NCBI GenBank assembly: GCA_015062395.1
Contig: SUUS01000004.1
Coordinates: 18,943 to 82,942 of the forward strand
Direction of reading: 5' to 3'
DNA length: 64,000 bases
Source: Alphaproteobacteria bacterium
GTDB lineage: Bacteria > Pseudomonadota > Alphaproteobacteria > CAAHEQ01 > UBA3637
Position 1 is the stretch's first letter; the number at the start of each line of letters is the position of its first letter. The translations under genes and the position numbers were made by a program. This document shows positions 27,314-55,009 of the stretch, in pieces. The notes beneath the pieces are model-generated. The model was given only the letters and a program-made list of their open reading frames with translations. It made no database searches and was not told the DNA's origin.

Positions 27314-28615
27314 TTATTCTGTTGTAGTGGTTCTGGTACGCGATGTTGGTTCATTTTGTCTGACACAAAATTTATGAACAACAGCTTCTTTAACAGCTCC
27401 TGACAGTGTGACAAACGTTGAATCTGCAGATTTTTCCACAGAAAAAGTCGTTTCGGTTGTCGCATTGGATACAAATTTCGTTGGAATGATTGTAATACCT
27501 TTATTGTACCCCGTTGGACATGTCCATTCATCTAAACCTTTTGAATCAGTAATCGTTTCAACATCCACTAAACTCCATTTTGGTAAAACTTCACTTAATT
27601 TAGCACCACCCAAAGACATTAACTTTATGTCATGCATAACAGATGTGTATGATGGGTCTAATTGATAACGCGCAACGCATGCTGTTCCTGTCCATGCGCA
27701 TCCTGCTGTTTGCTCACAGGTTGAAGCATTCGTTCCAGTGCAAGATGCACTATTATGGTTTTCACCGACGATTGGACCATCTATATGTAATTGCCCTGCA
27801 ATACGTACTTTACCCGTTGATGTATTGACCTCAAAAAAAGGCGTACAGCCAGTTTTAACAGTTACGGAATTAGTACCATAATTGGTTATGCAGTCATCGC
27901 TGTCAACGGTTAAAAGGTTTTTAAAACCTGCTGTTAGACCCGTTACTGTATCGGCTTGCGCCGTTTGTGCTTTTAAATGTTGCCATCTGATATCTTTCAG
28001 AATCGAAGAATTGGTGGCTTCTTCAAAGGCTGTTATAGCTGCGACTGCATTTACTGGAACTCCATCAAAGTCCCACTCCCAAGCTCCTTGCATTCCTTTT
28101 AGTGTTTCTGTCGTTCCTACACCACCTTCAAGTCCGATTAAGGCTGCAATTTTTGCCGCACGTCTCAAAGTTAAGGGTTGTGTTCCGTCTTGTTGATGTG
28201 CAATACCATAAATAACTGGACGATAGGTCGTATCAGAGACTGGGACAGTATAACCACAAATAACCAGCGCATAATCATCCAGAATTTCTGGATTTCCAGC
28301 AAAAAAATCCATTATATCATCGGTTGAAAAATCATAACATTCTTGTTTTTCTTGGGTTATACTTTGATAGTTTTCGTTTTCATCGTCATATAAGCCCAAT
28401 TCTTTCGATAGAATTAATTCATTTGCTTGGATATATGCAGCTAATCCATCTTTTACTGCACGTATTTCTGTGGCAATTTGCGTGTCAATAATGTCTTCAT
28501 TTCTGCGTCTGATTTGTTGAAACAAAATTGGTGTTATCAATGCAATTAAGCCAATAACAGCAACCATTTCAATCATTAAAGAACCTGTTTGTTTTTTCTT
28601 TACATTTTGACGCAT
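27314..28615 (-). CDS. Type-IV-pilin-like protein with a large C-terminal domain (minor-pilin or pseudopilin-like)
   Basis: 433 aa. N-terminus MRQNVKKKQTG|SLMIEMVAVIGLIALITPILF carries the class III signal motif (Glu at +5). The C-terminal ~380 aa are Thr/Gly/Cys-containing with no recognised domain. Confidence 0.6.
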   Translation of the reverse strand: MRQNVKKKQTGSLMIEMVAVIGLIALITPILFQQIRRRNEDIIDTQIATEIRAVKDGLAAYIQANELILSKELGLYDDENENYQSITQEKQECYDFSTDDIMDFFAGNPEILDDYALVICGYTVPVSDTTYRPVIYGIAHQQDGTQPLTLRRAAKIAALIGLEGGVGTTETLKGMQGAWEWDFDGVPVNAVAAITAFEEATNSSILKDIRWQHLKAQTAQADTVTGLTAGFKNLLTVDSDDCITNYGTNSVTVKTGCTPFFEVNTSTGKVRIAGQLHIDGPIVGENHNSASCTGTNASTCEQTAGCAWTGTACVARYQLDPSYTSVMHDIKLMSLGGAKLSEVLPKWSLVDVETITDSKGLDEWTCPTGYNKGITIIPTKFVSNATTETTFSVEKSADSTFVTLSGAVKEAVVHKFCVRQNEPTSRTRTTTTE

Positions 28616-28632: not shown

Positions 28633-29469
28633 TTATTTTTTAAGTGGTTTGATAATGCCACTTTGGCATATTGAGGTGTTGGCATTCCAATAACAACCTT
28701 GGTGTGCGTATTGTCCACAAGTTATATGATTGTGTTTTATGCAATTTGGATTATAAGCGACAGACAAACGCGAAATGCAAATTAAATACTCTTCATTCGT
28801 TTCATTTAAAATCTCATCCGTTAACGCTTTTGGTAAATTAACTGTTTTCATACGTGTGTTTGATAATGAATAATCAGCATTATTTGGGTCAAAATCACGA
28901 CCATCTTTTTGGCTGCGTTCTGCTAAAATACCACAGTATGTGGAAAGTTGAACGCCATCGCCACTGTTCGAATCGTCACGATATTCAATAAAACGCATTT
29001 TTTCACCCAACGCTCTGGGGGACAAGCTTGTTAAATACGTTCCATACATAGGATCTAAATCAGAAAAAGTTGTATATGTGACTAAAAAATCTGTTGTGCC
29101 ATAATCTTCAAAATCTTCATTGAATTGCCTTTTGGCACACGTATTTGTTTGCGATGCAGTTTCGTTATCAATGCAAATAATTGTTGAAATTGGAGGATTG
29201 TTCGTTTGAACCATGTTTGGCGATAAAAATTCACTGAATTCCATCTGACCCGATGCAACCCAGTCTTCATATTTCATTTTTCTGCTTCCATCTTCAGTCT
29301 CTGTGACCATAGAACCAGCTTGTAAAGCCGCGCTATGTTGGCTAATCAATTCTTGTACAACAATTTTAGCGTGTGGTATATCAATTTGGGAAACACCATC
29401 CGCTCTGGGGTAAAGCGAATAAAATAAAAGAGTCGCTAAAAAAGTCAGTGTTCCGAGTAAATAAAACAT
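28633..29469 (-). CDS. Hypothetical N-terminally anchored or secreted protein, co-oriented immediately upstream of the 433-aa pilin-like gene
   Basis: 278 aa. Hydrophobic N-terminus FYLLGTLTFLATLLFYSLY. AAGGA RBS. 17-nt gap to the next gene, suggesting an operon. Confidence 0.5.
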   Translation of the reverse strand: MFYLLGTLTFLATLLFYSLYPRADGVSQIDIPHAKIVVQELISQHSAALQAGSMVTETEDGSRKMKYEDWVASGQMEFSEFLSPNMVQTNNPPISTIICIDNETASQTNTCAKRQFNEDFEDYGTTDFLVTYTTFSDLDPMYGTYLTSLSPRALGEKMRFIEYRDDSNSGDGVQLSTYCGILAERSQKDGRDFDPNNADYSLSNTRMKTVNLPKALTDEILNETNEEYLICISRLSVAYNPNCIKHNHITCGQYAHQGCYWNANTSICQSGIIKPLKK

Positions 29470-30640: not shown

Positions 30641-30749
30641 AAAAAATATAATAAGTATTTTTTTGAAAAAATCAAATAATTTGAATAGACAATTACGAAA
30701 AAAAAGGTTATAATAAAAATATGTGAAAGAAGTTATAATAGGAGAAAAA

Positions 30750-30986
30750 ATGATACGTTTCATCTTTAGTATGTTATTCTATGGTTTCTTTTTAGGAATC
30801 TTGGCAATTGTTTGTATGTGGTTTTTTCTGGGGATGACTGTTCAAGAATCTATTAATTGGTTGATAGATAAAACTTCTCAAACACAGGAAATCGTTTCTG
30901 ACGGGGCTTCAGCAGTGGGGAGTACTGTTCGTTCTGTCAGCAATAATGTAGAACGTCAAATTGAACGTGTCGCTGAAAGTTTATAA
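30750..30986 (+). CDS. Small hypothetical membrane protein
   Basis: GGAG lies 7 nt upstream of ATG (MIRFIFSMLFYGFFLGILAIV..). One TM helix. Confidence 0.4.
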   Translation: MIRFIFSMLFYGFFLGILAIVCMWFFLGMTVQESINWLIDKTSQTQEIVSDGASAVGSTVRSVSNNVERQIERVAESL

Positions 30987-31492
30987 TGATTGAGGAAAAA
31001 GAAGAAAAAAATATACTGTACTATTTAAACCCTATTACATGGGGGCGTTTATGTATTTCGTATTTATTAACAGGCGCATTGATTCTTAATCATTTTTTCG
31101 TCTTTATTTTGATGGGGCTTATTATCTTGTTGGTCGCCTTTTTTTCTTATGACCGATATGCGTTAATGACATATGATGAGGATTATTCGTTGGCGTATTC
31201 ACATGGATTTTCTTCTACACGTAAGTATAATTCACCATTGGCTCGGGGCGATAAGTATTTGGCAAAAGAATTAAAAGCTTATTATACTTCAACAAGTCCG
31301 AAAAAACATTCTGAAAAATCTGGCAATAATCAGACAGGAGCGTTTGATGATAAATATGTCTTTCAGAAGTCACAACCTGTTTGGAACAGGAAAGAAACGG
31401 TTTCTCGTTCTTTTATTTATCAGGAAGTTCGCCAACGTTTGTTTAATATCGAAATAAATGTTATGCAAAATCAAAATAAAAAAGCAGAATAA
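30986..31492 (+). CDS. Hypothetical membrane protein
   Basis: 168 aa. TAATG overlap with the upstream ORF. Two TM helices. Confidence 0.45.
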   Translation: MIEEKEEKNILYYLNPITWGRLCISYLLTGALILNHFFVFILMGLIILLVAFFSYDRYALMTYDEDYSLAYSHGFSSTRKYNSPLARGDKYLAKELKAYYTSTSPKKHSEKSGNNQTGAFDDKYVFQKSQPVWNRKETVSRSFIYQEVRQRLFNIEINVMQNQNKKAE

Positions 31493-31537
31493 ATAAAACT
31501 TGTCTTTTTCTTCGAATATGCTAGGCTTGTTAAAAGC

Positions 31538-33388
31538 TTGATTGTAAAGGAGAATAAAATGCAAGAAAAAATCCCAGAACATTTTGATTTAGAACAGTTG
31601 GTTGTGGATGTCGTTTCTGCTGAAATGTTGGATGAAAAACAATCAGAACGTATCGTTTCTTTGTTAAGTAAAGCATTATCTGTTCACAAAATTATTTTGA
31701 ATGTGAAGATTGATAAATCATTAATAGCTGGTTTTAAATTGCAAATAGCATCTTGTTTTTTGGATTTTTCCTTGGATACAAAATTGCAAAAATTACAATC
31801 TTTTTTAGAAAATGTTGACTTTAATCAGCTTGAAAATTACGATTTTGATGCGCTGTTTGCCAAATGGAAAGAAAAGCAGAAATCAGAAAAAGTTATGCAA
31901 CGAATCGGGATTATTTCTTCAATCAAAGATGGCGTTGTTCGTATTAAAGGAATGAGGCAAGTTAAAGCTGGCGAATTGATTAAATTTTCGCACGATGCGC
32001 AAGGAATAGTTTTTACTTTAAATACAGATTATACAGATGTTGTTTTGCTTTCTGGTGCAGATGTTTTAAAAGAGGGGGATTTAGCATACCAAACAGGTGC
32101 AGTTGTTCAGGTTCCAATTGGAAAGGAATTAATCGGACGAGTCGTTGATGCTTTGGGTAATCCTTTGGATGGAAATGGTAAAATACAGACAAAACAACAA
32201 AAACCATTAGAAGCTTCAGTTCCAGGAATTATCGATAGACAACCTGTTTTTAAGTCTTTCCCAACAGGATTAAAGGTGGTTGATGCGTTGGTTCCTATCG
32301 GTTTGGGTCAGCGTGAATTAATCGTTGGAGACAGGCAAACAGGAAAAACATCTATTATCATTGATGCAATTTTAAATCAAAAACGCTTAAATGATGCTGC
32401 AAAACAAGAAAAAGATAAAATTTACTGCGTATATGTCTGCATTGGACAAAAACAATCTACGGTTGCTCAAGTTGTGAACGTGTTGAAAAATATGGGGGCT
32501 ATGGATTATACGTGTGTTGTTTGTGCTAATGCATCAGACCCTGCGTCGCAACAGTATTTGGCACCATTTACAGGAACAACGATTGCAGAATACTTTCGAG
32601 ACAATGGGATGAATGCCGTTGTTTTTTATGATGATTTATCGAAGCATGCGAATGCTTATCGGCAAATATCTTTGCTGTTGAGACGACCTCCTGGCCGAGA
32701 AGCTTATCCAGGGGATATTTTCTATTTACATTCTCGTTTGCTTGAACGAGCTGCTATGATGAGTGAGGAAAAAGGTGGTGGTTCTTTAACTGCAATACCC
32801 GTTGTTGAAACGCAAGAAGGCGATTTATCAGCCTATATCCCTACAAATGTAATTTCCATTACAGACGGTCAGATTTTTTTAGAAAGCGCTTTATTTCATC
32901 AAGGGGTAAGACCTGCTGTTAATGTTGGGTTGTCGGTGTCTCGAGTCGGTTCAAAGGCGCAAAGGCCATTACTTGCAAAATTATCAGGTTCTTTAAAATT
33001 GGAATTGGCTCAATATCGTGAAATGTTGTCCTTTTCTCAAATTGCTTCTGATTTGGATGCTTCTAGCCAAGAATTATTGCAAAAGGGCTTACGTATTACA
33101 GAGGTTTTAAAGCAGCGTGTTTATAAGCCCCTTTCTTTTGTTGATGAATATATTGCATTATATGCAGTTTTAAATGGCTTTTATGCAGGAATGGTTGCAC
33201 ATGATATTTTGGACTTTGAACCGATATTGTTGGAAAAAATACATTTAGATTACCCAGACATTATCGAAGAAATTGAAAATGCAAAAGGAACATTACCTTC
33301 GCATATTTTAAAAGCTTTAGATGACGCGATAAAAGAAGAAATAGCAGCTTTTATTGACGAAAAGACACGACAGGAACATTTGTCATGA
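31538..33388 (+). CDS. atpA: F1 ATP synthase: delta (OSCP) C-terminal-domain-like segment fused in frame to full-length alpha subunit
   Basis: 616 aa. Residues ~20-85 (VVDVVSAEMLDEKQ..NVKIDKSLIAGFKLQIAS..LDTKLQKL) align to the delta C-terminal domain. From ~120 onward a canonical alpha subunit follows (GIISSIKDGVVRIKG.., P-loop GDRQTGKT). AAGGAG lies 7 nt before ATG 31538. No stop codon separates the two parts. Confidence 0.8.
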   Translation: MIVKENKMQEKIPEHFDLEQLVVDVVSAEMLDEKQSERIVSLLSKALSVHKIILNVKIDKSLIAGFKLQIASCFLDFSLDTKLQKLQSFLENVDFNQLENYDFDALFAKWKEKQKSEKVMQRIGIISSIKDGVVRIKGMRQVKAGELIKFSHDAQGIVFTLNTDYTDVVLLSGADVLKEGDLAYQTGAVVQVPIGKELIGRVVDALGNPLDGNGKIQTKQQKPLEASVPGIIDRQPVFKSFPTGLKVVDALVPIGLGQRELIVGDRQTGKTSIIIDAILNQKRLNDAAKQEKDKIYCVYVCIGQKQSTVAQVVNVLKNMGAMDYTCVVCANASDPASQQYLAPFTGTTIAEYFRDNGMNAVVFYDDLSKHANAYRQISLLLRRPPGREAYPGDIFYLHSRLLERAAMMSEEKGGGSLTAIPVVETQEGDLSAYIPTNVISITDGQIFLESALFHQGVRPAVNVGLSVSRVGSKAQRPLLAKLSGSLKLELAQYREMLSFSQIASDLDASSQELLQKGLRITEVLKQRVYKPLSFVDEYIALYAVLNGFYAGMVAHDILDFEPILLEKIHLDYPDIIEEIENAKGTLPSHILKALDDAIKEEIAAFIDEKTRQEHLS

Positions 33389-34467
33389 GTGGTTTGAAAC
33401 AATTAAAAACGCAAATTAATACAGTTCAAACAACGATGAAAATTACATCGGCAATGCGAATGATATCTGTTTCTAACTTGCGTAAATCACATGGATTATT
33501 ACTGAATGCGTATCCTTATTTAGATGAAATTACCCGAATGCTTCGCAGATTGGTTCGTTCAGTTTCGTACAGACAAGAACAAAAATCTTTTCAAGCAGAA
33601 GAAAGTGATATTATTTTGCCAGCTTTACTAAAAGGAAAAGGTGAAGAAAAAAAGCATGTTGTTGTTTGTGTGACATCAGATGAAGGACTGTGTGGCCGAT
33701 TTAATTTTAGTGTTATCGATAAAACAACACAGGTAATTAAACATTTGCTTTCGCAAAAGCAACAGCATATTTCAATTGTGTGTATTGGAGCACGAGGGGG
33801 AGAGCTTTTATGTAAGAAATTTCCATCATTGCCTATTCACACGATACATCGAAAAGGGCATAAAGATATAGCTTTATTTTTAGAAGCAGAAAGAACTGCA
33901 ATGAATTTAATTGATAGCTTTTATCGTGATTTGTTTGACGTTTGTACAGTCGTGTACAGTGAATTTGAAAGTGCAGCAGTTCAGAAGATAAAAGTAGAAC
34001 AAATGATACCTCTTGAAACATTTCAACATCACGATATTTGGGATTTTATGAATGACAGCGAAGATCCTCATTATGTTAGGCGAGATGCATTAGGCCAAAA
34101 GCAAATCAAGCATACCGCAGCGCAATTGTTGAGCGCTATTGGGGGAAAGGATATTAAATCTCCATTAGGTTCTGTTGATGCAGATGCTTTATTAAAAGAA
34201 TCGACTCGCCTACCAGATAGCTATGATTATGAAGCGTCTGATTTGCAGATATTAGATTATATGTTGCCTTTGTTTGTTGAGGCGCATGTTTATAAAATTT
34301 TATTAAATTCGATGGCATCGGAAAGCGCAGCACGCATGATTGCGATGGAAGGTGCGTCAAAAAATGCAAAAGAAATGATGAAGGTATTTAATAAAAAATA
34401 TCATCGCAGACGTCAAGAGATGGTGACAAAAGATTTAACAGAAGTTATATCAGGTTCGATGAGTTAG
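33385..34467 (+). CDS. atpG: F1 ATP synthase gamma subunit (~70 residues longer than typical)
   Basis: N-terminal helix MSGLKQLKTQINTVQTTMKITSAMRMISVS.. and C-terminus ..ESAARMIAMEGASKNA..RQEMVTKDLTEVISG are gamma-typical. Extra sequence around residues 215-300. Confidence 0.85.
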   Translation: MSGLKQLKTQINTVQTTMKITSAMRMISVSNLRKSHGLLLNAYPYLDEITRMLRRLVRSVSYRQEQKSFQAEESDIILPALLKGKGEEKKHVVVCVTSDEGLCGRFNFSVIDKTTQVIKHLLSQKQQHISIVCIGARGGELLCKKFPSLPIHTIHRKGHKDIALFLEAERTAMNLIDSFYRDLFDVCTVVYSEFESAAVQKIKVEQMIPLETFQHHDIWDFMNDSEDPHYVRRDALGQKQIKHTAAQLLSAIGGKDIKSPLGSVDADALLKESTRLPDSYDYEASDLQILDYMLPLFVEAHVYKILLNSMASESAARMIAMEGASKNAKEMMKVFNKKYHRRRQEMVTKDLTEVISGSMS

Positions 34468-36494: not shown

Positions 36495-36911
36495 TTAAAT
36501 TTCGAATGTAAATACGATGACGCCTTCTCCTGCTCCAGCAGCAATTTGTGGGTTCGCATTTGCAGAGTTACGAGTTGTGATAGCTTCTGCAACAGCTGTA
36601 CCAAGATTCGGTGTTGTGAGTGTGAATTCATTATTGGCATTAACAGCACTAACTTGATAATCAACGGCATTTCCAATTGGAGCTGTATCTGTCATAAGAG
36701 CATTACAGGTTGTAGCGCCTAAATCAGCTGCAGCACCTGAACCACGTGTTTGAGCCAAAACACCACAACGGGATACATATTCCAAAACGCTGTTAGCGCG
36801 ATGACGGTTCATAGCCATTGTGTAACCAGCCAAACCACCGATTGACAAAACACCGATAATTGCCAATACACCCAACATTTCAATCATAGAACGACCATAT
36901 TCTTTTTTCAT
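36495..36911 (-). CDS. Type IV pilin (major-pilin-like), paralogue A
   Basis: 138 aa. MKKEYG|RSMIEMLGVLAIIGVLSIGGLAGY.. has a short basic leader, a Gly cleavage site and Glu at +5. Two Cys in the C-terminal half. Confidence 0.8.
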   Translation of the reverse strand: MKKEYGRSMIEMLGVLAIIGVLSIGGLAGYTMAMNRHRANSVLEYVSRCGVLAQTRGSGAAADLGATTCNALMTDTAPIGNAVDYQVSAVNANNEFTLTTPNLGTAVAEAITTRNSANANPQIAAGAGEGVIVFTFEI

Positions 36912-37385: not shown

Positions 37386-37796
37386 TTAAATTCCGAATGT
37401 AAATTGAACAGCGTCATCACCACTAGCAGCAATTTGTGGGTTCGCATTTGCAGAGTTACGAGCAACGATTGCTTCTGCAATGGATTCTCCAATAGCTGGT
37501 GTTGTAATTGTGAATTCATCATCAGCAGCTGCGCCAACGACGTACTCTGCAGCTGCACCAATTGGAGCTGTATCTGTCATAAGAGCACCACAGGTTGTAG
37601 CAGTTAAATCATCTGCAGCACCTGAACCACGTGTTTGAGCCAAAACAGCACAACGGGATACATATTCCATAACGGAGTTAGCGCGATGACGGTTCATAGC
37701 CATTGTGTAACCAGCCAAACCACCGATTGACAAAACACCGATAATTGCCAATACACCCAACATTTCAATCATAGAACGACCATATTCTTTTTTCAT
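37386..37796 (-). CDS. Type IV pilin, paralogue B
   Basis: 136 aa. The first ~60 aa are nearly identical to paralogue A. The C-terminal half has diverged (AEYVVGAAADDEFTITTPAIGESIAEAIVARNSANANPQIAASGDDAVQFTFGI). Confidence 0.8.
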   Translation of the reverse strand: MKKEYGRSMIEMLGVLAIIGVLSIGGLAGYTMAMNRHRANSVMEYVSRCAVLAQTRGSGAADDLTATTCGALMTDTAPIGAAAEYVVGAAADDEFTITTPAIGESIAEAIVARNSANANPQIAASGDDAVQFTFGI

Positions 37797-51171: not shown

Positions 51172-52205
51172 AATAATGTAGCCAATCCAATCAATCCCAT
51201 AAAAAATGAAAACAACCAAAAGCAGCGAACAACTTTGACTTCACTCCATCCTTTTTTTTCAAAATGGTGATGAATAGGCGCCATTAAAAAAATCCGTTTT
51301 TTAAAACGTTTGTATGAAAATACTTGTATCACATCCGACAGCGCTTCGATGACAAATAATGAACCGATAATAGCCAGTAATAATTCCTGATGTAAACAAA
51401 TGGCCATCATTCCCAATACAGCCCCCATTCCTAGAGCACCGATATCTCCCATAAAAATTTGAGCAGGTTTTTTATTGTAGTATAAAAATGCTAAAAGCGC
51501 TCCACAGGATGCTGATGCAAAAATACTAATAACCCAAACATCTGGTATATAAAAAAGCGAAACCCGTCTGGCTAAAGTTAAATCTCCTGTGATTATTCCC
51601 AATATGGCAAAGCAAATAAAAGAAATAATTAATGGTACGGAAACCAATCCATCTAATCCATCGGTTAAATTAACGGCATTGACGGTTCCTGTAAAAACGA
51701 ATGCGGCAAAAACAACATAAAGAAAACTTAATCCAAATACTGTTTTAAAATAAGGTATTTGTAGTGCTGTCATTACTTTTGTGGGCGTTAAATACATTGC
51801 AAAAAGTATAGCGATGGTTGCGACGATAAATTCAATGAGCAATCGTTTGTTTTCAGAAATACCATTTGGGGAAGAACTTTTTAACTTGCAAAAATCGTCA
51901 TAGAACCCTAAAAGTCCCATAGATAACATTACAAAAATTAAAATCCAAAGGAAGCCATTTGTAAGGGGACACCACAACAACACAGAAACCAATGTTGATA
52001 ATAATATAACAATCCCCCCCATTGTTGGCGTTCCTTTTTTGGTAAGGTGCGTTTGAGGACCGTTTAATCTGATGGGTTGTTCTTTTTTTAAGCTTTTCAT
52101 TTTGTTTATAAATTTGGGCATACCTAAAAAACAAAGCAGATATGCTGTTAAAAAAGCGATTAAACAAGACATTAAAACATTCGAAGATAAAACTGAAAAA
52201 AGCAT
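51168..52205 (-). CDS. mraY: Phospho-N-acetylmuramoyl-pentapeptide transferase
   Basis: ..NAVNLTDGLDGL.. and ..MGDIGALGMGAVLG.. Confidence 0.9.
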   Translation of the reverse strand: MLFSVLSSNVLMSCLIAFLTAYLLCFLGMPKFINKMKSLKKEQPIRLNGPQTHLTKKGTPTMGGIVILLSTLVSVLLWCPLTNGFLWILIFVMLSMGLLGFYDDFCKLKSSSPNGISENKRLLIEFIVATIAILFAMYLTPTKVMTALQIPYFKTVFGLSFLYVVFAAFVFTGTVNAVNLTDGLDGLVSVPLIISFICFAILGIITGDLTLARRVSLFYIPDVWVISIFASASCGALLAFLYYNKKPAQIFMGDIGALGMGAVLGMMAICLHQELLLAIIGSLFVIEALSDVIQVFSYKRFKKRIFLMAPIHHHFEKKGWSEVKVVRCFWLFSFFMGLIGLATLL

Positions 52206-55009
52206 TATTGAAAAGCCTCCAAAATTTTGTCTAAACGCATAGAGTTAGAACCTTTTATCAAAACAGTATCTCCATCTTGCAGAACTGCTTTTAACGATTC
52301 TATTACTTCAGGTGCATTTAAAACAGCAACAGCCTTTTTGCTTTCAGGAAGAACATCAAAGAGTTGTTTTATTTCTTCTCCTATCGTAAAAACAAGGTCT
52401 ATGTTATTTTTTTCAATAATGTCTTTTAAGCCTATATGTAGTTGTCTGGATTCTGTACCCAGTTCTTTCATTTCACCCAAAACAGCAATTTTCCTTCCAG
52501 GATAACGAGACAGAACGTCTAGTGAGGCTGCCATTGATGCAGGATTTGCATTATAAGCATCATCAATAAATGTAATCGTTTTTCCATCTATTTCTTTTTG
52601 CAGTGTTGCACCACGACCTTTTAACGGTTTAATGTGTTTTAAGTTTTCTATCGCTTTATCCACATCAGCACCTAACGCCAAAACAACGCCCAATACTCCC
52701 AAGGCATTTTGAATAAAATGTAATCCTGCTAATTGAAGCTGAAGTTGTTTTATTTGTCCATTAATTTGTATTTGAGCAATCGACCCTTCTTTGTTTATGG
52801 CGTAGTTTAATAATTTTACGGAAGCTTCTGGCTTGGAACCAAATGAATAAATATGAGAAATATCATTTTCAGAAGCTCTTTGTTTTAAATGTTGGAATTG
52901 ATCATTATCTGCATTTAAGAAAACAGCCCCATTTTTATTCATAAATTTAAAGATTTCGGATTTTGCATCAGCAATTTGTTGAACGTCTTTAAAAAATTCA
53001 AGATGTGCCGAACAAATCATTGTAATCAGTACAATGTCTGGTTTTACCAAATAAGATAGATATTCCATTTCACCAATATGATTCATTCCCATTTCAATAA
53101 TCGTCCAGTTGGCCAACCTGGGCATACGGGCCAAAGTTAAAGGAACCCCCCATTGGTTGTTTAAGTTTCCTTGCGTAAAATGAACTTCTCCTTGTCCTTT
53201 TAAAGCTGTTGCTAGCATTTCTTTGGATGTAGTTTTTCCTGATGAACCAGTAATACCAATTTTAATTGTTTTTGAATTTTGTACAGCATATTTTGCCATA
53301 TCCTCTAATGCTTCATCTGTATTAGTGACAAAGAATAATTTATCTGTTTGGTCAACTTGAGGTACATCTCTGCTAACAATCGCTGCCGCAGCACCTTTTT
53401 GGAGTGCATCGGCAACAAAATCATGTCCATCAAATTTTTCTCCTTTTAACGCAACGTAAATATCTCCAGGGATAATCGTTCTTGAATCAATAGAAACACC
53501 ATAGCCAATGAATGCTTTGTAAGCTTTTCCCCCAGTTGCTTTTTTCAATTCATCGCTTGTCCATAATGGTTTTTCTTCTTGTGATTTTAAGGCTAACAGC
53601 GCTTGGATGCGATCGTTAAAAGGATGGTTAAATCCATTAATCATTTGTCCTTCTTCATGACCTTTACCTGCAATTAACAAGCAATCTGCTTTTTGCAGTT
53701 TTCGAATCGCATGATAAATCGCTTTTGCTCTGTCTGCAATCGGATGTGCATTGGGACAGCCTTGCATAATTTCTGAACGAATTTCGGCTGCATCTTCAAA
53801 ACGGGGATTGTCATCTGTGACGATAACGTAATCAGCTAATTGTGCTGCTATTTGTCCCATAATAGGACGTTTTCCACGATCTCTGTTCCCACCACAACCA
53901 AAAACAACATAAAGTTTGCCTTTTGTTTGTCTTTTCAATGAGGTCAACGCTGTTTCAAGTCCATCAGGTGTATGTGCATAGTCAACAAAAATAGTCGCCC
54001 CAGTTTTTGTTTGAGCAATTAATTCCATTCTGCCAGCTGGACTTTTTAAGTGAGACAATGCCATTATAACATCAGGGATTGCAAAATTTAAAGATAAAAC
54101 CAAACCGATAGCTGCTAATACATTATAGCCTTGAAAGTTTCCTGCAACTGGCAGATGGACATCGTATCTTTCTCCGAATACTTCTAATGTTAAATCTTGT
54201 CCTGTTTCATAAAGTTTTTGATTTATTAAACGTATTTGTTGCCCTTGTTTTCCATAGGAAATAACATTTAATCCCTTTTGCTGGCAAATTTTTTGAATAG
54301 TTGTAAATTCTGGTATATCTGCGTTTAATACGGCTGTTTGCGTTGTTAATTCAGTAAATAAACGCATTTTTGCCATCAGATAATTTTCCATATTTTGATG
54401 ATAATCTAAATGGTCGCGTGTCAAGTTTGTAAATGCTGCAGCTTTGAATTTTAATCCACTTAATCTGTCTTGGTCCAAACCATGCGAGGATGCTTCTAAT
54501 GCTACGTAATTTACACTGTTTTCTGACAGCGTTTGTAAATCTTTACTTAAGGTAATACTGTCTGTTGTTGTCATTCCTGCATATGAATGATGATTTTTGG
54601 ACTGAACGCCTAATGTGCCAATACTGGCAGCATTTTTTCCAAGAGCTTCCAAAATTTCACGAACAAAAAAGACAGTAGAAGTTTTTCCATTTGTTCCTGT
54701 GACAGCCAATAAATTTTCAGGGTAATTTTGATAAAATAAAGACGCCAATTTAGCCATTGCTTGTCTGGCATTTTTAACTTCAAAAACTGGGATTTGCGCT
54801 TCAACAGGTGTGTCTGTTAAAATTGCAACTGCACCATTTGAAATAGCTTCTGGAATGTAAGAAAGACCACTTTCTTTATTTCCATTTACAGCAATGAATA
54901 AATTTCCTTTTTCAACTTTTCTAGAATCACAGGCAATTCCTGTTATTTCAAAATCAGCTTCAAAAGGCGTTGTAATTTCAGCTTTTTTTAATAATTCAGA
55001 CAATATCAT
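52205..55009 (-). CDS. murE: Fused MurE (meso-DAP-adding ligase) - MurF (D-Ala-D-Ala-adding ligase) polypeptide
   Basis: 934 aa single ORF. The N-terminal half is MurE (..VTGTNGKTSTVFF.., DNPR). From about residue 470 (WTSDELKKATGGKA..IYVALKGEKFDGHDFV..GITGSSGKTTSKEM) it is MurF. Confidence 0.8.
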   Translation of the reverse strand: MILSELLKKAEITTPFEADFEITGIACDSRKVEKGNLFIAVNGNKESGLSYIPEAISNGAVAILTDTPVEAQIPVFEVKNARQAMAKLASLFYQNYPENLLAVTGTNGKTSTVFFVREILEALGKNAASIGTLGVQSKNHHSYAGMTTTDSITLSKDLQTLSENSVNYVALEASSHGLDQDRLSGLKFKAAAFTNLTRDHLDYHQNMENYLMAKMRLFTELTTQTAVLNADIPEFTTIQKICQQKGLNVISYGKQGQQIRLINQKLYETGQDLTLEVFGERYDVHLPVAGNFQGYNVLAAIGLVLSLNFAIPDVIMALSHLKSPAGRMELIAQTKTGATIFVDYAHTPDGLETALTSLKRQTKGKLYVVFGCGGNRDRGKRPIMGQIAAQLADYVIVTDDNPRFEDAAEIRSEIMQGCPNAHPIADRAKAIYHAIRKLQKADCLLIAGKGHEEGQMINGFNHPFNDRIQALLALKSQEEKPLWTSDELKKATGGKAYKAFIGYGVSIDSRTIIPGDIYVALKGEKFDGHDFVADALQKGAAAAIVSRDVPQVDQTDKLFFVTNTDEALEDMAKYAVQNSKTIKIGITGSSGKTTSKEMLATALKGQGEVHFTQGNLNNQWGVPLTLARMPRLANWTIIEMGMNHIGEMEYLSYLVKPDIVLITMICSAHLEFFKDVQQIADAKSEIFKFMNKNGAVFLNADNDQFQHLKQRASENDISHIYSFGSKPEASVKLLNYAINKEGSIAQIQINGQIKQLQLQLAGLHFIQNALGVLGVVLALGADVDKAIENLKHIKPLKGRGATLQKEIDGKTITFIDDAYNANPASMAASLDVLSRYPGRKIAVLGEMKELGTESRQLHIGLKDIIEKNNIDLVFTIGEEIKQLFDVLPESKKAVAVLNAPEVIESLKAVLQDGDTVLIKGSNSMRLDKILEAFQ

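What the first reader, a model, noticed from the sequence alone, without database searches (positions are those of the whole stretch)
31538..33388. ATP synthase delta subunit reduced to its C-terminal domain and fused in frame to alpha
Seen: the ORF starting at 31538 (AAGGAG RBS) encodes ~85 aa that align to the C-terminal domain of OSCP/delta (..VSAEMLDEKQSERIVSLLSKALSVHKIILNVKIDKSLIAGFKLQIAS..LDTKLQKLQSFL). It then continues without a stop codon into a full alpha subunit whose beta-barrel begins GIISSIKDGVVRIKG. The upstream gene (30986..31492) is an unrelated membrane protein, so no separate or N-terminal delta is present here. Established: in F1Fo the delta N-terminal helical bundle binds the N-terminal helix of alpha, while the delta C-terminal domain contacts the b-subunit stalk, and alphaproteobacterial operons are normally atpH-atpA-atpG-atpD-atpC with a separate ~185-aa delta. 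Inference: a covalent delta(C-domain)-alpha fusion could replace the non-covalent delta-alpha contact. I do not recall this arrangement being described, but a sequencing or assembly error that removed a stop codon and the start of the delta gene cannot be excluded from the sequence alone.
Basis: partly seen in the sequence, partly recalled or inferred. Interest (0 to 1): 0.65.

Follow-up and report, generated by a model that had tools for sequence, protein, structure and literature searches.

The report
Natural delta(C-domain)–alpha ATP synthase fusion
This gut alphaproteobacterium really does encode an ATP synthase alpha subunit carrying only the stalk-binding half of delta at its front end, the same design that engineers built in 2025 to give the enzyme up to three stator stalks and twice the protons per ATP, and it is conserved across a whole uncultured clade.

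Summary
[quoted passage not shown] It is followed by atpG, atpD and atpC.

It is not an assembly error. The identical protein occurs on four independent metagenome contigs. 85 of the 120 best database clusters share the architecture, as do 11 species-level gut and rumen Alphaproteobacteria MAGs with the same synteny. The delta part is under strong purifying selection.

No delta N-domain occurs in the 64 kb window or beside the operon in relatives.

The arrangement is already described. Ueno et al. (Nat Commun 2025; PDB 9JC1) engineered exactly this delta(ΔN)-alpha fusion. [quoted passage not shown] They also noted a natural fusion gene in Acidaminococcus.

The window protein aligns without gaps to 9JC1 across the junction, and its model matches 9JC1 best.

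The alphaproteobacterial clade appears to be an independent, previously unreported origin. Multi-stalk assembly here is inferred, not shown. The Fo genes and the rest of the genome could not be examined.

The parts
30686..30714 (+). Best sigma-70-like promoter match (TAGACA-17-TATAAT, 11/12) upstream of orf87. It is a possible start of the transcription unit orf87-orf168-fusion-atpG-atpD-atpC.
   Evidence: consensus scan only; the total number of matches is not above shuffles
30723..30986 (+). orf87, a small single-pass membrane protein. It is conserved upstream of the F1 operon throughout the clade; function unknown. Not a delta or b homologue.
30986..31492 (+). orf168, a membrane protein with a predicted hydrophobic hairpin and a conserved C-terminal motif (FIQxEVRxRLxEIExNV). 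It is conserved in the clade; function unknown. Not a delta or b homologue.
31547..31552 (+). Shine-Dalgarno AAGGAG, 6 nt before ATG 31559
31559..33388 (+). Fusion gene delta(C-domain)-alpha, 609 aa (stop at 33386-33388; overlaps the atpG start as ATGA)
31595..31810 (+). Delta/OSCP C-terminal domain (aa 13-84): four beta strands plus two helices. This is the domain that binds the C-terminal end of subunit b in known enzymes.
   Evidence: Pfam. E. coli delta 108-176. AF2 secondary structure with pLDDT 81-86. dN/dS 0-0.08.
31811..31894 (+). Junction (aa 85-112): a short linker plus the helix equivalent to the alpha N-terminal helix (aa 96-108). It is the fastest-evolving part of the protein and has no conserved internal Met.
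   Evidence: Ungapped against 9jc1_I.
31895..33337 (+). Complete F1 alpha: beta-barrel (aa 113-182), nucleotide-binding domain with GDRQTGKT (aa 237-461), C-terminal helical domain (aa 468-593)
33385..34467 (+). atpG (gamma), 360 aa, with a clade-specific insertion of about 60 aa (aa ~213-275, nt ~34021-34209) just before the C-terminal helix
34483..35940 (+). atpD (beta), 485 aa
35941..36381 (+). atpC (epsilon), 146 aa
36443..36471 (.). 12-bp palindromic hairpin flanked by A- and T-runs between atpC and the convergent pilin-like gene. It is a likely bidirectional terminator.
   Evidence: consensus scan

Best explanation
This is a genuine, selected gene in which delta has lost its N-terminal helical bundle, and its C-terminal, b-binding domain is joined through a short linker to residue 1 of F1 alpha.

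Shown:
- The fusion, its domain boundaries and its conservation.
- The absence of a delta N-domain at the locus.
- Collinearity with the engineered delta(ΔN)-alpha subunit of PDB 9JC1.

Inferred:
- This is the only alpha gene seen in the operon, and no close unfused paralogue is visible in the databases. All three alphas of the α3β3 head would therefore carry a delta C-domain.
- The single central delta N-domain that normally breaks the threefold symmetry is missing. The head then offers three equivalent docking sites for b (or b/b') dimers.
- By analogy with the engineered Bacillus PS3 enzyme, and with the natural two-stalk Chloroflexus enzyme, the complex most likely carries more than one peripheral stalk, each holding its own a-subunit.
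- More protons would then cross per rotation. H+/ATP would rise about 2- to 3-fold and the pmf needed for ATP synthesis would fall.
- Such a gear change would plausibly suit energy-limited anaerobic gut and rumen bacteria.
For: Real and selected:
- The identical 609-aa protein lies on 4 contigs from at least 3 independent assemblies.
- 85 of the best 120 clusters are delta-CTD-only plus alpha, down to about 50% identity.
- 11 GTDB species-representative MAGs (human gut, yak rumen and others) have the same fusion and the same synteny. Two members of the deep second subclade share the core arrangement around the F1 operon.
- Delta-CTD dN/dS is 0 (dS 0.49), 0.076 and 0.081 in close pairs.
- The fusions form one clade in a rough NJ tree, apart from the Firmicutes-type fusions.

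No delta N-domain:
- The N-domain profile finds controls at E 1e-24 to 1e-33. It finds nothing in the window, in L001-L011, or in the complete operons L021 and L023.
- No unfused alpha shares more than about 61% identity with the window's alpha.
- There is no conserved internal Met at the junction.
- The alpha N-helix equivalent is strongly relaxed. Its identity is 0.17 against 0.78 for the nucleotide-binding domain, versus 0.52 against 0.88 in unfused alphas.

Same design as the engineered enzyme:
- The N-terminal profile's best PDB hit is 9jc1_I (E 1.2e-22), profile 19-141 against chain 9-131 without a gap.
- The AF2 model (pLDDT 79) aligns over 584-588 columns only with 9jc1 chains, TMq 0.78-0.83 against 0.70-0.74 for ordinary alphas.

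Functional precedent:
- The engineered fusion gives up to 3 stalks and a-subunits, a and b stoichiometry 2.4x and 2.0x, H+/ATP 5.9 against 3.1 (preprint values; the published abstract gives 5.8), and a halved equilibrium pmf.
- Chloroflexus F1Fo naturally has 2 stalks and 2 a-subunits with a shortened delta N-domain.
Against: - No Fo genes (a, b, b', c) lie in the window or in any fetched relative's locus, so their number and nature are unknown.
- The rest of the genome could not be searched. A separate delta, a stand-alone delta N-domain or a second alpha elsewhere is not excluded.
- Stalk number, a-subunit number and H+/ATP cannot be read from sequence. Even the engineered enzyme is a mixture of 1-, 2- and 3-stalk particles.
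- Alphaproteobacteria normally use a b/b' heterodimer, which was not tested in the engineered system. This point is from my own knowledge.
- The organisms are uncultured.
Confidence: 0.6

Rival explanations
1. Single-stalk enzyme. The fusion only makes the delta-alpha contact covalent. One of the three delta C-domains binds the one b/b' stalk and the other two stay empty. The proton-to-ATP ratio is then unchanged, and the fusion reflects streamlining of assembly or of the genome.
For: The engineered enzyme also contains single-stalk particles with normal geometry. Nothing in the sequence forces more than one stalk. The Fo gene dosage is unknown.
Against: In the engineered enzyme, removing the delta N-domain and fusing the C-domain was sufficient to recruit about 2 stalks and a-subunits on average without any other change. 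The same architecture appears to have arisen independently in several lineages: Acidaminococcus, Christensenellaceae and Eubacterium-labelled MAGs, and this clade. In one lineage b itself is fused to each alpha (L023). Both points argue for selection on stalk multiplicity rather than on mere tethering.
Confidence: 0.3
2. A separate delta (full-length or N-domain only) or a second, unfused alpha is encoded elsewhere in the genome. The working enzyme would then contain one fused and two plain alphas, or a normal cap, and would be conventional.
For: Only 64 kb of this genome and about 20 kb around each relative's locus could be read. In Alphaproteobacteria the Fo operon lies elsewhere anyway.
Against: In other Alphaproteobacteria atpH sits directly upstream of atpA. 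Here that position holds only the truncated, fused remnant in the window, in 11 relatives and, by precomputed Pfam annotation, in two members of the deep second subclade. No unfused alpha above about 61% identity appears among the database hits. The alpha N-terminal helix, the normal ligand of the delta N-domain, has lost conservation. Firmicutes-type analogues with complete operons have no separate delta.
Confidence: 0.06
3. The N-terminal delta-like piece is a decaying remnant without function, or the fusion is an artefact such as a lost stop codon, a frameshift or a misassembly.
For: A few database entries do look like read-through or gap artefacts, for example L012/P0053 with a run of N.
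Against: Identical protein sequences come from independent assemblies. The architecture is conserved across alpha divergence down to about 54% identity. dN/dS is at most 0.08 in the delta part. The OSCP core motif is conserved, with G58 and D69 invariant and S71 present in at least 90% of sequences. The predicted delta-C fold is confident.
Confidence: 0.02

Closest known systems
Engineered delta(ΔN)-alpha fused FoF1 of Bacillus PS3 (Ueno et al., Nat Commun 2025;16:5410; PDB 9JC1/9JC2)
   Same: Delta residues about 105 to the end are fused to the alpha N-terminus, with no delta N-domain. The junction length is identical: the alignment to 9jc1_I is ungapped. It is the best full-length structural match.
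   Different: The natural version has its own native linker instead of GSGG. It has an alphaproteobacterial background, presumably with b/b', and epsilon is full length. Stalk number and H+/ATP have not been measured here.
Natural delta(ΔN)-alpha genes noted in Acidaminococcus fermentans (UniProt D2RLW6), G4Q3K6 and A0A1I2C5T3, and the Christensenellaceae-type operon seen here (L021)
   Same: Same domain architecture. There is no separate delta in the operon. The enzyme has not been studied experimentally.
   Different: Those are Firmicutes with the whole operon a-c-b-[fusion]-γ-β-ε. In the rough tree the one Firmicutes-type delta(ΔN)-alpha sequence available here (P0259) falls outside the alphaproteobacterial clade, which suggests an independent origin. 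The published Acidaminococcus sequences themselves were not compared. The window clade has a split F1 operon and a gamma insertion.
[quoted passage not shown]
   Same: It shows that natural F-type enzymes can carry more than one stalk and a-subunit, and that the delta N-domain sets the number.
   Different: There delta is a separate protein with a shortened four-helix N-domain that dimerises. It is not fused to alpha.
Mycobacterial/Gordonia b-delta fusion (PDB 7JG5 and others)
   Same: A stator subunit fused to delta.
   Different: Delta is fused to b, it is full length, and it is present once per complex. Alpha is separate.
Canonical alphaproteobacterial atpH-atpA-atpG-atpD-atpC (e.g. Paracoccus, PDB 5DN6)
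   Same: The gene order A-G-D-C is the same. The alpha part is most similar to alphaproteobacterial and mitochondrial alphas.
   Different: atpH is reduced to its C-domain and fused. Gamma carries an insertion of about 60 aa.

Membership tests
F1 ATP synthase alpha subunit (AtpA) | N-terminal beta-barrel, P-loop nucleotide-binding domain and C-terminal helical domain, encoded next to gamma, beta and epsilon | tested here: met
   Pfam PF02874/PF00006/PF00306. PDB alphas at E ~1e-170. GDRQTGKT invariant. atpG, atpD and atpC lie downstream.
Delta/OSCP (PF00213), full-length subunit | N-terminal helical bundle that binds the alpha N-terminal helices on top of F1 | tested here: not met
   Pfam matches only profile positions 102-170. 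An N-domain profile finds nothing in the window.
Delta/OSCP (PF00213), full-length subunit | C-terminal alpha/beta domain that binds the end of subunit b | tested here: met
   Pfam E 1.2e-12, above the cut-off. The predicted fold is four strands plus two helices, pLDDT 81-86. Binding to b itself was not tested.
Delta(ΔN)-alpha fused, multi-stalk FoF1 (engineered PS3 enzyme; natural Acidaminococcus-type genes) | Delta C-domain joined in frame to the alpha N-terminus with a short linker, delta N-domain deleted | tested here: met
   Ungapped alignment to 9jc1_I across the junction, E 1.2e-22. Foldseek TMq 0.83 over 588 columns.
Delta(ΔN)-alpha fused, multi-stalk FoF1 (engineered PS3 enzyme; natural Acidaminococcus-type genes) | No other delta, and no unfused alpha, in the organism | tested here: inconclusive
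   Absent from the 64 kb window and from about 20 kb around the gene in 11 relatives. No close unfused alpha in the databases. The whole genome was not available.
Delta(ΔN)-alpha fused, multi-stalk FoF1 (engineered PS3 enzyme; natural Acidaminococcus-type genes) | More than one peripheral stalk and a-subunit per complex; raised H+/ATP | not testable with these tools
   This needs cryo-EM, stoichiometry or pmf-equilibrium measurements. The precedent exists only in the engineered enzyme.
Chloroflexus-type two-stalk F1Fo | A separate delta with a shortened N-domain that forms a dimer on top of F1 | tested here: not met
   There is no separate delta gene at the locus and no N-domain of any kind.
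N-type ATPase operon | Gene order β-ε-(Q,R)-a-c-b-α-γ without delta | tested here: not met
   The order here is [δC-α]-γ-β-ε, with no Fo genes adjacent.

The most novel reading that the evidence does not exclude
[quoted passage not shown] On the rough alpha tree this design arose separately from the Firmicutes-type fusions and has been kept for a long time. The clade-specific gamma insertion, at the position of the chloroplast/cyanobacterial regulatory loop, would be a co-evolved brake or regulator. Together with the b-δC-α triple fusions and the Clostridium deltas with three tandem C-domains seen in passing, this would mean that multi-stalk F-ATP synthases are a recurrent natural adaptation to low proton-motive force rather than a laboratory curiosity.
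Probability: 0.4. Interest if true: 0.8.

Novelty: new member of a known kind. Interest (0 to 1): 0.55.

Why it matters
It was long thought to be set only by c-ring size.

In 2025 an engineered delta(ΔN)-alpha fusion showed that the ratio can be doubled by multiplying stalks and a-subunits. Natural examples were only guessed at from three Firmicutes sequences.

This window shows the same design fixed and under selection in a deep, apparently independent alphaproteobacterial lineage of animal guts. The clade includes dozens of sequence clusters and at least 11 species-level genomes.

That gives a second natural test case and supports convergence. It also points to habitats, anaerobic and energy-limited, where a low-gear ATP synthase would pay.

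Current annotation calls these proteins simply 'F0F1 ATP synthase subunit alpha', so the feature is invisible in databases.

Tried and rejected
- **Fo genes nearby.** phmmer with E. coli c and b, plus an a-subunit motif, against all ORFs of the window and loci found them only in the unrelated control loci L015 and L017. The Fo operon of the clade could not be reached with the tools.
- **Separate delta genome-wide.** This was not possible. 
- **Internal start giving free alpha.** There is no conserved Met in the junction. The only Met in the window's junction (aa 112) has no Shine-Dalgarno sequence and is V, I or L in relatives.
- **orf87 and orf168 as disguised b or delta N-domain.** hhalign probabilities were at most 5%. 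In most relatives a SixA-like phosphatase gene separates them from the fusion gene.
- **P0053/L012 'short form'.** It is caused by a run of N in the scaffold.
- **P0056, an unfused 516-aa alpha nesting in the clade in the NJ tree.** It follows a b-like protein with a truncated delta-C-like end (L027) and is probably an N-ATPase-type paralogue or long-branch artefact. It was not pursued.
- **The 1.84-billion representative search.** It returned mostly fragments, so it was of little use for counting lineages. It did reveal other fusion types.
- **afdb50 fold search.** Not available.
- **Cluster names.** They gave nothing finer than 'Alphaproteobacteria bacterium', so the order-level taxonomy is unresolved. 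My guess from memory is a gut group such as RF32 or Rs-D84; this was not tested.
- **Literature.** No follow-up on natural fusion enzymes was found.
Full report
**1. What is in the sequence**

The ORF listed from TTG 31538 to 33388 most likely starts at ATG 31559. This ATG lies six bases after AAGGAG (31547-31552) and gives 609 aa.

Pfam places four domains:
- The delta/OSCP family (PF00213) at aa 13-81, matching only profile positions 102-170 of 172 (E 1.2e-12, 48.7 bits, cut-off 22.3).
- The alpha beta-barrel at aa 112-180.
- The nucleotide-binding domain at aa 237-461.
- The C-terminal domain at aa 468-593.

atpG overlaps the stop codon (ATGA at 33385), and atpD and atpC follow. The two ORFs upstream are small membrane proteins without family matches.

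**2. Not an artefact**

- The identical 609-aa protein is encoded on four contigs from at least three separate ENA metagenome assemblies, with the same neighbours.
- Of the 120 best 90%-identity clusters in a 5.8-billion-protein search, 85 have a delta C-domain without an N-domain in front of alpha (561-762 aa). Three have a full delta fused to alpha. No unfused alpha is more than about 61% identical to the window's alpha part.
- A scan of one genome per GTDB species found 11 MAGs labelled 'Alphaproteobacteria bacterium' with a 603-636-aa fusion ORF. Their sources include Hadza human gut, another human-gut set and yak rumen.
- Synteny is conserved on both sides: a YgjP-like gene, a Cys-rich gene, orf87, orf168, the fusion, atpG, atpD, atpC, pilin-like genes and rlmN. 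Two members of a deeper subclade keep only the core next to the operon: the YgjP-like gene, a small ORF (plus, in L029, a His_Phos_1 gene), the fusion, a long gamma, beta and epsilon.
- In close pairs the delta part has dN/dS of 0 (dS 0.49), 0.076 and 0.081. This is as constrained as the alpha barrel.
- A twelfth locus with a 'short' form is explained by a run of N.

**3. Is the delta N-domain anywhere nearby?**

A profile of the N-domain built from 26 deltas recovers every control at E 1e-24 to 1e-33. The controls are separate deltas in Acidobacteriota, Bacteroidetes and Verrucomicrobia loci, and full delta-alpha fusions. The profile finds nothing in a six-frame translation of the window (best E 6.8), in the 11 relatives, or in two complete Firmicutes-type operons.

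orf87 and orf168 show no profile similarity to subunit b or to the delta N-domain.

The junction has no conserved internal methionine, so free alpha is unlikely to be made from this gene.

The segment equivalent to the alpha N-terminal helix is the normal ligand of the delta N-domain. Here it is the least conserved part of the protein. Its mean identity is 0.17 against 0.78 for the nucleotide-binding domain. In unfused alphaproteobacterial alphas the figures are 0.52 against 0.88. This fits loss of its partner.

Fo genes are not in the window or in the relatives' loci, as is usual for Alphaproteobacteria. The rest of the genome could not be read. A delta gene elsewhere is therefore unlikely but not excluded.

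**4. What is known**

A full-text search found Ueno et al. (bioRxiv 2024; Nat Commun 2025;16:5410).

- They reasoned that the delta N-domain, sitting on the threefold axis, limits FoF1 to one peripheral stalk.
- They deleted residues 2-104 of Bacillus PS3 delta and fused residues 105-178 to the alpha N-terminus.
- The enzyme assembled with up to three b-dimers and three a-subunits (cryo-EM; PDB 9JC1/9JC2).
- It had 2.0- and 2.4-fold more b and a.
- H+/ATP was 5.9 against 3.1 in the preprint (5.8 in the published abstract), and the equilibrium pmf was halved.
[quoted passage not shown] They call a multi-stalk structure there 'highly likely'.

A second 2025 paper shows a natural two-stalk, two-a-subunit F1Fo in Chloroflexus, attributed to a shortened, dimerising delta N-domain.

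No follow-up on natural fusion enzymes was found. An earlier survey of atp gene fusions lists only b-delta.

**5. Comparison with the engineered subunit**

A profile of the first 141 positions of 27 natural fusions has 9jc1_I as its best PDB hit. That chain is named 'ATP synthase delta subunit, ATP synthase subunit alpha'. The hit has E 1.2e-22, with profile 19-141 aligned to chain 9-131 without a single gap. The natural junction therefore has the same length as the designed one.

An AlphaFold2 model of the window protein was built from 39 sequences (mean pLDDT 79, pTM 0.79). It shows:
- the delta-C fold (strands 13-20, 44-51, 59-63, 66-69; helices 26-40, 72-84; pLDDT 81-86);
- a short linker;
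- a helix at 96-108;
- the barrel from 113.

In a Foldseek search of the PDB, only the three 9JC1 fusion chains align over 584-588 columns (TMq 0.78-0.83). Ordinary alphas align over 490-511 columns (TMq 0.70-0.74).

**6. Origin**

A rough neighbour-joining tree was built on 503 columns of the alpha part.
- All alphaproteobacterial delta-C-alpha fusions form one group with two deep subclades. Within-group identity falls to about 54%.
- This group sits next to unfused alphaproteobacterial alphas.
- Firmicutes-type fusions fall outside it.

The window's alpha is also closest to mitochondrial and Paracoccus alphas in the PDB.

The fusion in this clade is therefore old, stable, and probably independent of the Firmicutes-type fusions. 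This rests on a distance tree, and the Acidaminococcus sequence itself was not available to me.

**7. Mechanism, and how sure**

*Shown:*
- The fusion is genuine and selected.
- Its delta part is the b-binding domain only.
- There is no delta N-domain at the locus.
- The protein is collinear with, and has the same predicted structure as, the engineered subunit.

*Inferred:*
- All three alphas carry a delta-C module and nothing caps the axis.
- The head can then bind up to three stalks, each bringing an a-subunit.
- This would raise H+/ATP and lower the pmf threshold for synthesis. In reverse, it would pump more protons per ATP to a lower maximal pmf.

I put about 0.6 on the multi-stalk reading. 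I put about 0.3 on a single-stalk enzyme in which the fusion merely tethers the stalk, and little on a hidden delta or alpha elsewhere or on artefact.

The habitat fits a low-gear enzyme but proves nothing. The MAGs come from gut and rumen. The same architecture recurs in MAGs labelled Christensenellaceae and Eubacterium, and the published case is Acidaminococcus.

**8. Verdict**

The window adds a new and probably independent lineage. The clade is large and shows clear selection, and its gamma subunit is also unusual.

I file it as a new member of a known kind, of moderate to good interest. Its value lies in offering a second natural system, and evidence of convergence, for the still untested idea that multi-stalk F-ATP synthases exist in nature.

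Noticed in passing
window 34021-34209 (gamma aa ~213-275), within atpG 33385-34467: Gamma is 360 aa, against about 290-300 elsewhere. It carries a clade-specific insertion of about 60 aa just before the C-terminal helix. From memory, this is the position where chloroplast and cyanobacterial gamma carry their regulatory insertion. The insertion is seen in the seven clade gammas aligned (window, L001, L003, L004, L008, L011, L012), and other clade gammas have similar lengths (348-362 aa). It is absent from other phyla, from full delta-alpha fusion lineages and from the Firmicutes-type fusion operons.
   Followed up: partly
window 30723-30986 and 30986-31492; L001-L012: Two small membrane-protein genes (about 63-102 aa and about 150-194 aa, the latter with a conserved C-terminal FIQxEVRxRLxEIExNV motif) sit upstream of the F1 operon, both in most clade loci, and possibly share its promoter. 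They have no family match and no similarity to b or to the delta N-domain.
   Followed up: partly
window 31493-31558 versus L001-L005, L007-L009, L011, L029: Most relatives have a SixA/His_Phos_1-like gene of about 170 aa between orf168 and the fusion gene. The window, L006 and L010 lack it.
   Followed up: no
L023 8001-10262 (P0258, 753 aa); also P0111 (762 aa), fragments P0159 and P0200: These are triple fusions of b, the delta C-domain and alpha. Pfam gives b at 3-125, OSCP profile positions 95-170 at 164-245, then alpha. The operon is a-c-b-[b.δC.α]-γ-β-ε with no separate delta. The P0258 cluster has 32 members, one of them seen on 158 contigs. Every alpha would then carry its own membrane-anchored stalk arm.
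   Followed up: partly
L030 6001-7095 (P0124, 364 aa); also P0127, P0128, P0157 (3 C-domains); P0129, P0131, P0137, P0182 (2): These delta subunits have one N-domain followed by two or three tandem C-domains. P0124 is labelled Clostridium (faecium, argentinense, MULTISPECIES) and sits in a normal a-c-b-δ-α-γ-β-ε operon. This is another possible natural route to several stalks. I found no literature on it.
   Followed up: partly
L018 159-2267 (P0089, 702 aa); L019/L020 10001-12106 (P0107, 701 aa); P0158, P0251: These are full-length delta (N- and C-domain) fused to alpha. P0107 occurs in two samples with priA upstream. They may be evolutionary intermediates, or a different solution in which only one of three N-domains can sit on the axis.
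   Followed up: partly
L021 3053-3430: In the Christensenellaceae-type fusion operon the c-subunit gene encodes 125 aa, much longer than the usual 70-85 aa.
   Followed up: no
window 52205-55009 (-): A 934-aa bifunctional MurE-MurF fusion lies in the dcw cluster. It is another gene fusion in this genome.
   Followed up: no
window 36495-36911 (-), 37386-37796 (-), 27314-28615 (-), 28633-29469 (-): Two tandem paralogous type IV pilin-like genes (N-terminal MIEMLGVLAIIGVLS...) lie directly downstream of atpC. Upstream are larger proteins, one of which (27314-28615) has a pilin-like N-terminus. All are conserved in relatives.
   Followed up: no
L028 15878-21818; L029 14914-21845: In both members of the second subclade a cluster of phage-like genes (terminase, nozzle, T7-type capsid, cell-wall hydrolase) lies just downstream of atpC at the same position.
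   Followed up: no
L027 2-397 and 491-2041 (P0056): An unfused 516-aa alpha groups with the fusion clade in the rough tree. It follows a b-like protein ending in a truncated delta-C-like segment, and is followed by a 366-aa gamma. It may be an N-ATPase-like or secondarily split operon.
   Followed up: partly
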